This document shows positions 40,725-42,749 of a stretch of 64,000 bases of DNA, in pieces. Positions within the stretch are counted from its first letter, which is position 1, and the number at the start of each line of letters is the position of its first letter. The notes below the pieces were generated by a model. The model worked only from the letters and a program-made list of their open reading frames with translations. It was not told the origin of the DNA and made no database searches. This DNA is from a virus (lineage: Duplodnaviria > Caudoviricetes). The stretch is taken from IMG/VR virus record IMGVR_UViG_3300005683_000038, positions 7,465 to 71,464 of that record. One strand, 5' to 3'. Position numbers and translations under genes: made by a program.

Positions 40725-42749
40725 ATGAATGTGCTTTCTTCTACTTCTATTCGCATTGGCCATCTTGCTCGGAATTTGGCTTGGAATGCGAAGCCGGCTG
40801 TGACGGCATCTTCGCCTCCCCCGCCGGTTGATCCCATGTTGGAAGATCCATCTAAGTTGTTCCGGTTGCTGGATGAAGAATTGATTGTGCGTGAAATGAT
40901 CACGGCAGTCGGTCGCGATACTTCAGTTTCAGTCAAAGCCACTCTCAAAGATGCCAATGGCGATGTCTTGCTTTTGAAAGATGTCCGAACAGGCAATTGG
41001 GACCTGCCCGGCGGTCACAAGCAGGAAGGTGAAAGCGATTACCGAGCCCTTGTCAGGGAGATAAAGGAAGAGACGGGGCTGGACGTGGCCAGTGTGACGT
41101 TTGTCAAGCAGATGCCAAAAGCAATCTTCTATGATGTGTTGGTTACGGGTGTTCGGCCGGCGGTAGTTTTAAGCAACGAACACACTGATTTCAAGTGGGA
41201 ACAGCCAGGTCGTGCAAAGCATGACGCGGCCTATTGGACGGGAGGTTATCTCGTGCATGATCTCACGCGAGACCAGGCGCAGATCAGTGTCACTAATGCC
41301 GTCCGGCGCATTGTAGCATTGGCTGAGACAGACGTGATCTCGGGCCGAGACAACCCCCATTATGAGGATGATGCTGCTTTGATCTTCACCGCCGCGTTGG
41401 CCGCTGCTTACGGTGTAGCGGTGATGAAGATGGACAAAGAGGTTCGGCAAGTGAACCAAGGCGATAAGACGACTAGGGTAGAAGACAGGATCTTCGCTCA
41501 TAGTCGGATTGATGACTTGCGCGGATTCATCCAGGACGTGAAGGAACGTCTGAAAGATACTGCCCGCACTTTGCCGGTTGAGGAGAAAAACACGGTTGAA
41601 CGGGCTCGGCGGGTTCACGCTGAAGGAGATGCCATTCTCGACGGAGCCGGCAAACGAGTGTCTGAGACAGAGTCCCAAATCATTTACGGACATTCGGTTC
41701 TGCGAGCTCTCCAACGGGCCGGTTATACCAGCGCCTATTGGGTGACGATGGGAGATGAACGAGTGCGCGATTCCCATAATGAGTGTGAAGCGGCCGGTGC
41801 CATCCCACTAGGCCAACCGTTTCCAAATGGTCTGCTCTTTCCGGGCGATGCTGAGCACGGTGGCCCAGAGGAAATTTGCAACTGCTTCCCAGCTGATACA
41901 CTTGTGCAGCTTCCTGGTTTACGAGCAGTCACCCGTCAAAGGTACAAGGGCGATCTCGTTGAGTTGCGATTTGCCAGCGGCCGCTGTCTCTCCGCTACGC
42001 CGAATCACCCGATATTGAGGGGTGACGGTAAGTGGATTCCTATTAACCTCTTCAACGAAGGTGATGATTGCATCAGCTGTGAGATTGGTAGGGAGCTCCC
42101 CAGCCAGCCATACAAAAATACAACACCAACCAAGATTTCCAAGGTCTACGACCTTCTTAATTCGATGGGGGTGTCTAAACGGAAAGTCGCATCCCCGATG
42201 GACCTCCACGGCGATGCGACCGATACTCAAATCGAGGTTGTATCCATAAAGGGGAGTTTGTCGGACCACATGGGGATTCCGAAGAATGAGCAAATTATAG
42301 AGTTCGGCTTCGCCCTTGCCAACATTACGAAGAAGAGATTGTTTAACGAAGGAGGAAGTGAGACATCGTTTATGCCCCCATTTCGATCGTTCGGATTCAA
42401 TGAAAGGATGGTTGGTTCTTCTGGCGATGTTGGCAGCTTGTGCGTATCTTCTCTTTTGTTCCGTTGTCCTTCCATTGGCGAGGAGTTGATTGGCTTCTTG
42501 GCTTCCTCTCAAGATGACACCAACATTCATCAATCGATTGCTAATTGTCCATCGGCTGACTTTGAACAACTCCGCCAAGAAATTTATACTTTCCCCTTTA
42601 GTATAACGTTGGACAAGGTCGTTGGTATCAAGCGGTATTTTTTTCATGGTGAGGTATTTAATTGTGACACAGGAGCAGGATACTACACCGCCAATGGTAT
42701 AGCAACGCAAAATTGCCGATGTTGGCTTGAAGGAGCATCAAAGCGATGA
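40725..42749 (+). CDS. Nudix hydrolase-MuF (phage minor head protein) fusion containing an intein
   Basis: Perfect Nudix box GGHKQEGESDYRALVREIKEETGL; MuF WVTMGDERVRDSH...FPGD...ICN/CRC. Confidence 0.9.
   Translation: MNVLSSTSIRIGHLARNLAWNAKPAVTASSPPPPVDPMLEDPSKLFRLLDEELIVREMITAVGRDTSVSVKATLKDANGDVLLLKDVRTGNWDLPGGHKQEGESDYRALVREIKEETGLDVASVTFVKQMPKAIFYDVLVTGVRPAVVLSNEHTDFKWEQPGRAKHDAAYWTGGYLVHDLTRDQAQISVTNAVRRIVALAETDVISGRDNPHYEDDAALIFTAALAAAYGVAVMKMDKEVRQVNQGDKTTRVEDRIFAHSRIDDLRGFIQDVKERLKDTARTLPVEEKNTVERARRVHAEGDAILDGAGKRVSETESQIIYGHSVLRALQRAGYTSAYWVTMGDERVRDSHNECEAAGAIPLGQPFPNGLLFPGDAEHGGPEEICNCFPADTLVQLPGLRAVTRQRYKGDLVELRFASGRCLSATPNHPILRGDGKWIPINLFNEGDDCISCEIGRELPSQPYKNTTPTKISKVYDLLNSMGVSKRKVASPMDLHGDATDTQIEVVSIKGSLSDHMGIPKNEQIIEFGFALANITKKRLFNEGGSETSFMPPFRSFGFNERMVGSSGDVGSLCVSSLLFRCPSIGEELIGFLASSQDDTNIHQSIANCPSADFEQLRQEIYTFPFSITLDKVVGIKRYFFHGEVFNCDTGAGYYTANGIATQNCRCWLEGASKR
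41883..42713 (+). mobile_element. Intein (277 aa) in the MuF NCRC motif
   Basis: C1 CFPADT, block B TPNHPI, C-terminal VFN...ANGIATQN followed by Cys+1. Confidence 0.9.
41919..42647 (-). CDS. Antisense intein-nested HTH + DUF559/Vsr-like endonuclease
   Basis: Y..GES...LA..F.VSR.TI..RL HTH; E..LY.LL...Q..L.GYNLDL...IAVEV...LG..GW..IFVW. Confidence 0.8.
   Translation of the reverse strand: MKKIPLDTNDLVQRYTKGESINFLAELFKVSRWTISNRLMNVGVILRGSQEANQLLANGRTTEQKRRYAQAANIARRTNHPFIESERSKWGHKRCLTSSFVKQSLLRNVGKGEAELYNLLILRNPHVVRQTPLYGYNLDLSIGRIAVEVHRGCDFPFRHPHRIKKVVDLGNLGWCCIFVWLAGELPTNLTADAIITFVEEVNRNPLTVTPQYRVIRRSGETAAAGKSQLNEIALVPLTGDCS

What the first reader, a model, noticed from the sequence alone, without database searches (positions are those of the whole stretch)
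41883..42713. Intein whose homing endonuclease is encoded on the opposite strand
The 277-aa intein has normal Hint ends but a featureless middle. The reverse strand holds a 242-aa ORF (42647 to 41919) with a recognisable HTH and a DUF559/Vsr-like nuclease domain. Both frames stay open over 729 nt, and the antisense gene overlaps the intein's block B and C-terminal strands. Inteins normally carry the endonuclease in frame. Here a separately expressed nuclease would be hidden antisense within an essential head gene, decoupling its timing from late MuF expression.
Basis: partly seen in the sequence, partly recalled or inferred. Interest (0 to 1): 0.9.

Follow-up and report, generated by a model that had tools for sequence, protein, structure and literature searches.

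The report
Intein with antisense homing-endonuclease gene
A self-splicing protein insert (intein) in this wastewater phage's head-assembly gene carries its DNA-cutting "homing" enzyme as a separate gene on the opposite strand, codon against codon; the layout is real and widespread, but a 2025 preprint already describes it.

Summary
The NUDIX-MuF gene (40725-42749, +) holds a 277-aa class-1-like intein (41883-42713). A 242-aa ORF (42647-41919, -) lies on exactly the same codon triplets.

The antisense protein folds as an HTH plus a Vsr-like nuclease (Vsr Z 10.2, I-Bth0305I Z 9.6). The sense frame folds only as a HINT domain, with an unstructured stretch of about 110 residues in the middle.

All 70 related loci examined have both frames open. 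The codons that would stop the antisense frame occur 361 times in 19,192 extein codons and at most 5 times in 10,517 overlap codons. Across 52 loci the antisense frame is the conserved one, except over intein blocks A/B.

In relatives, block F supplies the antisense ATG and Shine-Dalgarno, and block G often reads TGnTATAAT. The window copy keeps the ATG but lacks the SD and has a poor -10.

In wastewater runs the intein is nearly invariant (1 difference in about 2,300 nt), while the flanks differ by 3.8%. This points to recent spread.

The layout is published (Gosselin, Arsenault, Gogarten, bioRxiv 10.1101/2025.01.02.630785). This scan has also noted it before on other DNA (127 notes, at least 101 genomes). 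It is a new member of a known kind. Transcription and cleavage remain untested.

The parts
40725..42749 (+). Precursor ORF (674 aa): NUDIX domain, MuF-like head-morphogenesis domain, intein, 11-aa C-extein
   Evidence: ORF list. Pfam NUDIX E 2e-12 at aa 68-162 and weak Phage_Mu_F. PHROG head protein 15127 E 2.9e-42 and head-morphogenesis PHROGs whose matches end at aa 387.
41883..42713 (+). Intein, 277 aa: Cys1, block B TPNH (41997-42008), C-terminal Asn277, +1 Cys. The penultimate residue is Gln, not His.
   Evidence: Sequence. Intein_Nterm and Intein_splicing weak hits. RadA and RecA intein sequence hits. AF2 plus VIA: only HINT domains, Z 10-12.9, about 100-111 residues aligned.
41883..42092 (+). 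N-terminal HINT lobe (intein residues 1-70), the sense-selected part
   Evidence: pLDDT about 95. Across 52 loci the sense frame is better conserved here and the codon-position entropy pattern flips to sense.
42258..42590 (+). Sense-frame linker (intein residues 126-236), predicted unstructured, poorly conserved as protein
   Evidence: pLDDT <50 with a 39-sequence alignment. Sense BLOSUM about -0.4 to 0.3, against 0.5-1.8 for the antisense frame.
42603..42713 (+). C-terminal HINT lobe (residues 241-277; blocks F and G)
   Evidence: pLDDT 90-97. Block F/G motifs are shared with relatives.
42714..42749 (+). C-extein CRCWLEGASKR plus stop. It completes the conserved MuF N|CRC motif.
   Evidence: Sequence. 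Relatives end ...HN|CRC, and Pfam Phage_Mu_F is interrupted at about profile position 95 of 112.
41919..42647 (-). Antisense gene, 242 aa plus stop: candidate homing endonuclease (HTH + Vsr-like nuclease)
   Evidence: ORF. Homologues at 26-44% identity. 1,323 cluster representatives at E<1e-30. AF2 pLDDT 78. The window protein keeps the family's E113, D139, E148, basic 165 and W180.
42510..42644 (-). HTH DNA-binding domain (antisense residues 2-46)
   Evidence: Pfam HTH_7 E 7e-4. VIA matches to a phage repressor, the GcrA DNA-binding domain, and resolvase/Tc3 HTH domains at Z 5-7.
41970..42329 (-). Vsr-like nuclease domain (antisense residues 107-226), encoded antisense to intein residues 30-149
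   Evidence: VIA: 1cw0 Vsr Z 10.2 (rmsd 2.8, 109 aligned), 3hrl Z 9.7, 3r3p I-Bth0305I Z 9.6. Foldseek probability 0.99 to 3r3p. Profile hit to 3hrl E 3.6e-4.
42645..42647 (-). Antisense ATG, the reverse complement of the block-F His codon CAT
   Evidence: the same His codon gives ATG in 31 loci and GTG in 3, of 42. CAT is used in 31 of 34 cases against 37% in exteins (P 5e-11).
42696..42704 (-). Degenerate extended -10-like element TGCTATACC, at the position where relatives read TGnTATAAT (antisense of block G)
   Evidence: perfect TGnTATAAT in 12 of 43 loci, and 5 of 6 matches in 16 more. The window scores 4 of 6 and lacks the final T. The sigma-70 scan finds nothing upstream of the ATG.

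Best explanation
This is a mobile intein whose homing endonuclease is a separate gene on the opposite strand, read on the same codon triplets.

On the + strand, the MuF precursor is translated straight through. The region that encodes the nuclease on the other strand is read as an unstructured linker of about 110 residues between the two HINT lobes. The intein then splices itself out and rejoins the conserved N|CRC motif of MuF.

On the - strand, a 242-aa protein made of an HTH and a Vsr-like (EDxHD/DUF559-type) nuclease is produced from its own signals. By inference, it recognises and cuts intein-less MuF alleles at or near the insertion site. Recombinational repair from the intein-bearing copy then copies both the intein and the nuclease gene.

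Shown here: both frames are kept open by selection, the antisense frame is the conserved one across the middle, the two folds are as described, and the element is sporadic and nearly invariant within a diverged phage population.

Inferred, not shown: transcription and translation of the antisense gene, cleavage, and splicing.

In relatives the antisense start codon and Shine-Dalgarno lie within intein block F, and a -10 box lies within block G. The window copy has only the ATG, so its expression may be weak.
For: Both frames are open in 70 of 70 related loci with GC 0.37-0.73. Sense TTA/CTA/TCA codons number 361 of 19,192 in exteins and at most 5 of 10,517 in the overlap.

In the close pair L012/L018, substitutions in the middle fall 58/9/32 on sense positions 1/2/3, and sense position 3 dominates at the ends. 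Across 52 loci the antisense residues 6-193 are better conserved than the sense translation, and this reverses over blocks A/B.

The antisense model matches Vsr, 3hrl and I-Bth0305I at Z 9.6-10.2. The profile hits 3hrl and PF18741. The sense model is HINT only, with residues 126-236 below pLDDT 50.

Expression signals are embedded in blocks F and G of relatives. The antisense start codon is ATG or GTG in 34 of 42 loci. An SD-like motif sits 5-9 nt upstream (mostly 8-9) in 33 of 42, against a 5% background. The Ile-Ile pair is coded ATT-ATA in 12 of 19 cases against 4.6% expected.

Mobility: the family sits in MuF, portal-MuF fusions, minor capsid protein 2 and a UDG. In one Salmonella/Escherichia phage group, 68 records carry the intein DNA while 591 carry the extein. 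In the window's own phage, the intein plus about 25-57 nt of flank is invariant (1 difference in about 2,300 nt laid) while the flanks differ by 149 in 3,936 nt. Two upstream haplotypes converge on a single intein sequence.

Published precedent.
Against: There is no direct evidence of antisense transcription or translation. The RNA-library contigs give no strand and may contain DNA.

The window copy has no Shine-Dalgarno and only a 4-of-6 match to the -10 consensus, and no sigma-70-like promoter lies upstream of its ATG.

The penultimate intein residue is Gln rather than the family's His, and block F is atypical. Splicing and expression efficiency are therefore uncertain.

No intein-less allele was seen in the four runs laid, so a current homing target was not demonstrated.

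The window protein alone gives no sequence-level nuclease hit.

The loci compared are related, so the P values overstate independence.
Confidence: 0.8

Rival explanations
1. The antisense gene is real in the family, but in this phage it is a silent or decaying relic. The intein has swept to fixation, there are no targets left, and the expression signals are eroding while the ORF is still intact. This is the homing-cycle stage that follows fixation.
For: The window copy lacks the SD found in 33 of 42 relatives and has TATACC where relatives have TATAAT. No promoter-like site lies upstream. No intein-less joint was found in four runs. Block F is atypical and the penultimate residue is Gln.
Against: The ORF is intact and keeps the residues that are invariant or nearly so in the family: E113, D139, E148, basic 165, W180. 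The near-identity of the intein across diverged flanks argues for very recent spread, which implies recent activity. The host and its promoter and RBS rules are unknown.
Confidence: 0.2
2. The antisense ORF is a non-coding shadow of a sense-frame domain, and its openness and apparent homology are by-products of sense-strand constraint.
For: In the window alone, a 242-codon antisense run has P about 0.012, and other genes show runs of up to 391 codons. Every homologue lies antisense to an intein, so none is independently known as a free-standing gene. The invariant QYRVIR motif is simply the reverse complement of block B.
Against: The stop-making codons are depleted about 40-fold in the overlap, including in loci at 37-46% GC. 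Substitutions concentrate at the antisense third position. The antisense translation is much better conserved than the sense one across residues 6-193. It folds confidently into a known nuclease fold, whereas the sense middle does not fold. There is codon bias for ATG and for an SD at its start.
Confidence: 0.03
3. The antisense protein is made but is not a homing enzyme. It would be, for example, a phage-serving nuclease or regulator (host DNA degradation, exclusion of competing phages, repair) that merely resides inside the intein.
For: Vsr-like/DUF559 folds serve many roles. No cleavage site or target is shown. The HTH could be a regulatory domain.
Against: The protein family was found only inside inteins, in several unrelated host genes. 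Its distribution among related phages is sporadic. The intein and ORF travel as one invariant unit across diverged flanks. Its nearest characterised structural relative among mobile elements is a homing endonuclease.
Confidence: 0.07
4. True double function: the sense-frame middle is also a functional polypeptide, for example a regulatory or DNA-binding linker, and not just an open spacer.
For: Sense residues 80-125 show some predicted structure (helix 85-94 at pLDDT 93, strand 117-121). The sense motif D-F/L-H-G-D is as well conserved as the antisense catalytic strand it overlaps (BLOSUM 2.32 against 2.13).
Against: Residues 126-236 are below pLDDT 50 and poorly conserved as protein. Structure searches find only HINT. 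The conservation at D-F-H-G-D can be explained by the antisense Y-N-x-D...A-V-E catalytic core.
Confidence: 0.1

Closest known systems
Inteins with an anti-sense VSR-like homing endonuclease in actinobacteriophages (Gosselin, Arsenault, Gogarten, bioRxiv 10.1101/2025.01.02.630785)
   Same: A contiguous intein, often in a minor capsid (MuF) protein. The HEN ORF is on the opposite strand. The fold is VSR-like with an HHpred link to 3R3P. The in-frame middle has no recognisable structure. Some clusters show signs of horizontal transfer.
   Different: The preprint covers PhagesDB actinophages only and calls the layout rare. This copy is in an uncultured wastewater phage with a NUDIX-MuF host protein. 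The same family is in 108 GenBank phage records (Salmonella, Pseudomonas, Gordonia, Aaphi23 and others) and in 1,323 protein clusters. [quoted passage not shown] Here the nuclease domain and the start signals overlap HINT blocks A/B, F and G. The preprint text does not mention promoters, ribosome binding or start codons.
Antisense LAGLIDADG inteins (Synechocystis DnaX, Chloroflexus SpoVR-like; Gorbalenya 1998 and Gogarten 2002, as cited in the preprint)
   Same: The endonuclease ORF lies on the strand opposite a contiguous intein.
   Different: The nuclease family is different (LAGLIDADG rather than Vsr-like). These inteins were not examined here.
Fractured genes: split inteins with a free-standing Vsr-like HEG between the halves (Dassa et al. 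2009, PMC2677866)
   Same: A Vsr-like homing endonuclease is associated with an intein in phage genes. The nuclease is a separate gene rather than an in-frame domain.
   Different: In that work the host gene and intein are broken into two ORFs. The paper states that Vsr-like HEs were not known in inteins. Here the intein is contiguous and the HEG is antisense.
I-Bth0305I (EDxHD family; PDB 3R3P; Taylor et al. 2011, PMC3239194)
   Same: The catalytic fold is Vsr-like (Z 9.6, 93 residues aligned), and a separate DNA-binding region lies N-terminal to it.
   Different: I-Bth0305I is encoded in a group I intron on the sense strand. Sequence identity is about 16%. The EDxHD motif was not aligned residue by residue here. 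The N-terminal domain in this family is one to five HTH repeats.
ShiLan insertion in phage DNA methylases with a hidden out-of-frame HNH endonuclease (PMC11855218; seen only as title and abstract)
   Same: An in-frame insertion in a phage gene hides an endonuclease in a different reading frame.
   Different: That element is not an intein, the nuclease is HNH, and it lies in another frame rather than being codon-aligned antisense.

Membership tests
Class 1 intein (HINT domain) | N-terminal Cys/Ser nucleophile, and a +1 Cys/Ser/Thr after a C-terminal Asn | tested here: met
   Cys at 41883-41885, Asn at 42711-42713, Cys at 42714-42716.
Class 1 intein (HINT domain) | Block B TxxH motif | tested here: met
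   TPNH at 41997-42008. It aligns to the RadA and RecA inteins. His42 is invariant in 39 sequences.
Class 1 intein (HINT domain) | Penultimate His in block G | tested here: not met
   The window has TQN|C, whereas most relatives have HN|C. To my knowledge some active inteins lack this His, so the result is not disqualifying.
Class 1 intein (HINT domain) | HINT fold | tested here: met
   VIA Z 10-12.9 to the hedgehog Hint domain and to the RecA, DnaB and gp41-1 inteins, with about 100-111 residues aligned at rmsd 1.5-2.7. All 32 chains with Z>=2 are Hint-type.
Class 1 intein (HINT domain) | Protein splicing activity | not testable with these tools
   This needs expression of the precursor.
Anti-sense VSR-like HEN intein (Gosselin et al. 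2025 preprint) | A contiguous intein with a complete ORF on the opposite strand inside it | tested here: met
   The same holds in 70 of 70 relatives.
Anti-sense VSR-like HEN intein (Gosselin et al. 2025 preprint) | The antisense product has a VSR-like / 3R3P-like fold | tested here: met
Anti-sense VSR-like HEN intein (Gosselin et al. 2025 preprint) | The in-frame middle has no recognisable structure | tested here: met
   pLDDT <50 for residues 126-236, and only HINT matches.
EDxHD / Vsr-like homing endonucleases (I-Bth0305I) | Vsr-like catalytic fold | tested here: met
   3r3p Z 9.6 and 1cw0 Z 10.2.
EDxHD / Vsr-like homing endonucleases (I-Bth0305I) | The E-D-x-H-D catalytic residues | tested here: inconclusive
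   The family keeps E113 (98%), D139 (invariant), E148 (invariant) and a basic residue at 165. I did not map these onto the EDxHD positions.
EDxHD / Vsr-like homing endonucleases (I-Bth0305I) | Site-specific cleavage of the element-free allele | not testable with these tools
   This needs a cleavage assay.
Pfam DUF559 (PF04480) / MTES_1575 (PF18741) | HMM match above the gathering score | tested here: inconclusive
   The window protein has no hit at E<=1. Four of 8 relatives hit PF18741 (best E 2.9e-6). Some database members carry PF18741 or PF04480.
Fractured gene / split intein with free-standing HEG (Dassa 2009) | Host gene and intein split into two separate ORFs | tested here: not met
   A single open frame runs 40725-42749.

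The most novel reading that the evidence does not exclude
The element is not an intein that happens to house a foreign gene. It is a tightly co-evolved two-strand unit in which the HINT coding sequence doubles as the nuclease gene's expression cassette. Block G (G-I-I-T/S-H-N-C, coded ...ATT ATA ACA/TCA...) reads TGnTATAAT on the other strand. Block F (H-V-Y-N-L-Q) supplies the ATG and a GGAGG 8 nt upstream of it. Blocks A/B encode the nuclease's C-terminal strands. Every homing event therefore carries promoter, RBS and gene within the intein's own boundaries. The window copy, with these signals eroded after a recent sweep, would show the first step of the homing cycle's decay phase.
Probability: 0.45. 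Interest if true: 0.6.

Novelty: new member of a known kind. Interest (0 to 1): 0.4.

Why it matters
It shows that about 730 bp of phage DNA encodes two proteins on opposite strands. It also means a widespread nuclease gene goes unannotated: no separate gene was listed under the match in any of the 40 GenBank phage records displayed. Where gene callers do pick the antisense ORF, no gene is called for the head protein.

For intein biology, it supports the view that inteins acquire endonucleases by capturing free-standing genes. The family also occurs in cultured carriers (Salmonella, Pseudomonas, Gordonia and Aggregatibacter phages), where antisense expression, homing and splicing can be tested.

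The layout itself is already in a 2025 preprint, and this scan has met it many times. The value here lies in corroboration, the wider breadth, the details of the embedded expression signals, and the population-level sign of a recent sweep.

Tried and rejected
- The GC content by codon position in high-GC relatives was ambiguous, because both wobble positions are GC-rich. I replaced this test with substitution and conservation analyses.
- Searches with the window's antisense protein alone found no nuclease in Pfam, NCBIfam, PHROGs or PDB sequences.
- The window's phage has no close relative in the GenBank phage set by DNA or by the MuF extein. It has none in IMG/VR by the extein either. I could therefore not find an intein-less allele of this particular gene.
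Bacterial genomes were not surveyed.
- I looked for free-standing relatives. All 70 loci examined are antisense-in-intein, but only the closest members were sampled, so free-standing relatives are not excluded.
- Laying reads gave no joint that skips the intein in four runs. RNA-library contigs cover most of the region, but they cannot show strand or prove transcription.
- The sigma-70 scan found no promoter-like site upstream of the window's antisense ATG.
- Most locus pairs are saturated (40-55% nt identity), so a formal dN/dS was not attempted beyond position counts for one close pair.
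Full report
**The observation.** The + strand ORF 40725-42749 encodes 674 aa. It has a NUDIX domain (Pfam E 2e-12, aa 68-162) and a MuF-like head-morphogenesis region. The matches to PHROG 15127 (E 2.9e-42) and to several head-morphogenesis PHROGs stop at aa 387.

From aa 387 the sequence reads C-F-P-A-D-T..., carries T-P-N-H at residues 39-42 of the insert, and ends ...A-T-Q-N followed by C-R-C. This 277-aa insert (41883-42713) gives weak intein hits in Pfam, NCBIfam and the PDB sequence set.

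The minus strand holds an ORF from ATG 42647 to the stop at 41919-41921 (242 aa).

**Is the double open frame more than chance?** Not on the window alone. In this codon-aligned arrangement, the antisense frame is stopped only by the sense codons TTA, CTA and TCA. These make up only 1.8% of codons in the neighbouring genes. A 242-codon run therefore has P about 0.012, and the capsid gene has a 391-codon run.

The comparative data decide the question. The antisense protein has homologues at 26-44% identity. A profile search finds 1,323 cluster representatives at E<1e-30.

Every locus I could inspect has the same layout:
- seven metagenome contigs,
- 59 of 59 IMG/VR loci at 40-73% GC,
- three long contigs, including one at 37% GC,
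- two annotated phages.

In each, the homologue lies on the strand opposite a long ORF, in the same codon register, with both frames open. That ORF carries intein blocks B, F and G in nearly all loci. Across 44 unique loci the three critical codons occur 361 times in 19,192 extein codons and at most 5 times in 10,517 overlap codons. Those few are counting-boundary cases, probably the antisense gene's own stop codon. The summed log10 P is -98. The loci are related, so this overstates independence, but they are diverged to 40-55% nucleotide identity.

**Which frame is selected?**
- In the one close pair (L012/L018, 16% divergence), differences in the middle fall 58, 9 and 32 on sense codon positions 1, 2 and 3. 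This is the pattern expected if the antisense frame is the coding one. At the extein and C-terminal ends, sense position 3 dominates.
- In a 52-sequence codon alignment, antisense residues 6-193 are clearly better conserved than the sense translation (mean BLOSUM about 0.5-2.6 against -0.4 to 1.6, apart from one near-tie at the catalytic strand). Entropy is higher at the antisense third position.
- From antisense residue 194 to the end the relation reverses. That part corresponds to intein residues 62-16, which hold blocks A and B.
- The invariant antisense motif Q-Y-R-V-I-R is simply the reverse complement of block B (T-P-N-H-P-I-L).

**Folds.**
- The antisense protein, with only eight sequences in its alignment, folds at mean pLDDT 78, and about 90 over residues 107-226.
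- An all-against-representatives structural search gives Vsr endonuclease 1cw0 at Z 10.2 (rmsd 2.8, 109 residues), the DUF559-like 3hrl at Z 9.7 and the homing endonuclease I-Bth0305I (3r3p) at Z 9.6. HTH domains match residues 2-46 at Z 5-7. Foldseek agrees.
- At sequence level, the family profile hits 3hrl (E 3.6e-4), and four of eight members hit PF18741.
- The window protein keeps the residues that are invariant or nearly so in the family: E113, D139, E148, a basic residue at 165, and W180.
- The sense intein, with a 39-sequence alignment, folds as a HINT domain. Residues 1-70 and 241-277 have pLDDT about 95. Only Hint-type structures match, at Z 10-12.9. Residues 126-236 stay below pLDDT 50.
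- The 'featureless middle' is therefore confirmed. Using the mapping a = 256 - r, the nuclease domain lies antisense to intein residues 30-149. The overlap thus includes structured HINT sequence and not only the linker.

**Expression signals.**
- In 34 of 42 relatives, the conserved His of block F (H-V-Y-N-L-Q-T) is the reverse complement of the antisense start. CAT gives ATG in 31 loci and CAC gives GTG in 3. CAT makes up only 37% of His codons in the exteins (P 5e-11).
- In 33 of 42, the N-L-Q codons read GGAGG, GAGG or GGAG on the other strand, mostly 8-9 nt before that start (background 5%).
- Further upstream, block G (G-I-I-T/S-H-N-C) is often coded ...ATT ATA ACA/TCA CAC AAC TGC. On the antisense strand this reads TGnTATAAT, an extended -10 consensus. 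It is perfect in 12 of 43 loci, and 16 more have a hexamer matching 5 of 6.
- The Ile-Ile pair is ATT-ATA in 12 of 19 cases against 4.6% expected.
- That these function as promoter and RBS is my inference. The preprint text does not mention promoters, ribosome binding or start codons.
- The window copy differs. It keeps CAT/ATG. Its block F is H-G-E-V-F-N-C-D-T with no SD. Block G is G-I-A-T-Q-N, giving TGCTATACC. The consensus scan finds no promoter upstream.

**Mobility.**
- The family sits in MuF, portal-MuF fusions, minor capsid protein 2 (PF06152) and one uracil-DNA glycosylase (PF03167). MuF is interrupted at about profile position 95 of 112, which is the N|CRC motif.
- tblastn finds the family in 108 GenBank phage records (Salmonella 61, Gordonia 15, Pseudomonas 14, Aaphi23, S1249 and others). 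In all 40 records displayed the match lies under a single annotated head gene. In the two records inspected that gene is on the opposite strand and the antisense ORF is not annotated.
- In the Salmonella/Escherichia group, 591 records have the MuF N-extein but only 68 have the intein DNA.
- The window is part of a 71-kb IMG/VR virus record. The phage occurs in wastewater, sludge and river data from 12 studies.
- Laying contigs from four runs shows flanks differing from the window at 149 of 3,936 positions (3.8%), with two upstream haplotypes within single samples.
- The stretch from about 41826-41859 to 42718 shows 1 difference in about 2,300 nt laid. The depth of the intein contig roughly equals the sum of the two flanking haplotypes.
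- Dual coding does not freeze this region, because L012 and L018 differ by 16% across it. The pattern therefore indicates a recent spread of one intein sequence through a diverged population.
- No intein-less joint was seen in those four runs.

**Comparison with what is known.**
- Dassa et al. 2009 described Vsr-like endonuclease genes between split-intein halves and stated that such enzymes were not known in inteins.
- Gosselin, Arsenault and Gogarten (bioRxiv 10.1101/2025.01.02.630785, version of Oct 2025) report contiguous actinophage inteins, including ones in minor capsid proteins, with an 'anti-sense VSR-like HEN'. They also report an HHpred link to 3R3P, an unstructured in-frame middle and signs of horizontal transfer. 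They cite antisense LAGLIDADG inteins from 1998-2002.
- The window's element meets every feature of that class that I could test.
- This scan has also recorded the arrangement on other DNA many times (127 notes in at least 101 genomes). Some of those follow-ups cite the same preprint, and one mentions an own promoter.

**Verdict.** The element is a new member of a known, recently described kind.

- the breadth beyond actinophages,
- the frame-specific selection map,
- the embedding of start codon, SD and a -10 box in blocks F and G,
- the population signature of a recent sweep in this phage,
- the observation that this copy has weak expression signals and a Gln penultimate residue.

Still open: antisense transcription and translation, cleavage specificity, and splicing.

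Noticed in passing
window 42294-42322 (- strand): A strong sigma-70-like site (TTGGCA, 17 nt spacer, TATAAT; 11 of 12 matches) lies inside the antisense ORF. It would start a leftward transcript near 42287, in the nuclease's first helix. It could be chance. It could also drive an antisense RNA against the MuF/intein N-terminus, or an N-terminally truncated product.
   Followed up: no
window 40725-41250: A NUDIX hydrolase domain is fused to the N-terminus of the MuF-like protein (Pfam E 2e-12).
   Followed up: partly
window about 42727, run X13: One contig matches the window up to 42727, 14 nt past the intein end. It then continues for 62 nt into unlike, GC-rich sequence. This may be a similar intein sitting in a different phage's gene within the same sample (table 7).
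   Followed up: no
L010 3-1220 (- strand): The same intein-plus-antisense-nuclease family is inserted in a uracil-DNA glycosylase (PF03167, 29 bits, above the cut-off), before a C-R-P-P motif. This looks like a switch of host gene away from MuF.
   Followed up: partly
P0009-P0155 and L001 1555-2616: The antisense proteins carry one to five tandem HTH repeats (lengths 220-440 aa). The sense frame stays open through every extra repeat, so the intein's linker length tracks the nuclease's repeat number.
   Followed up: partly
L079, L081, L082; P0160 (Candidatus Promineifilum breve plasmid record): On long contigs, gene callers sometimes call the antisense ORF and call no gene where the head gene lies. 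On short contigs they call it because the host gene is cut off. The family's database entries, some named 'very-short-patch-repair endonuclease', are therefore all intein-internal in the sample examined.
   Followed up: partly
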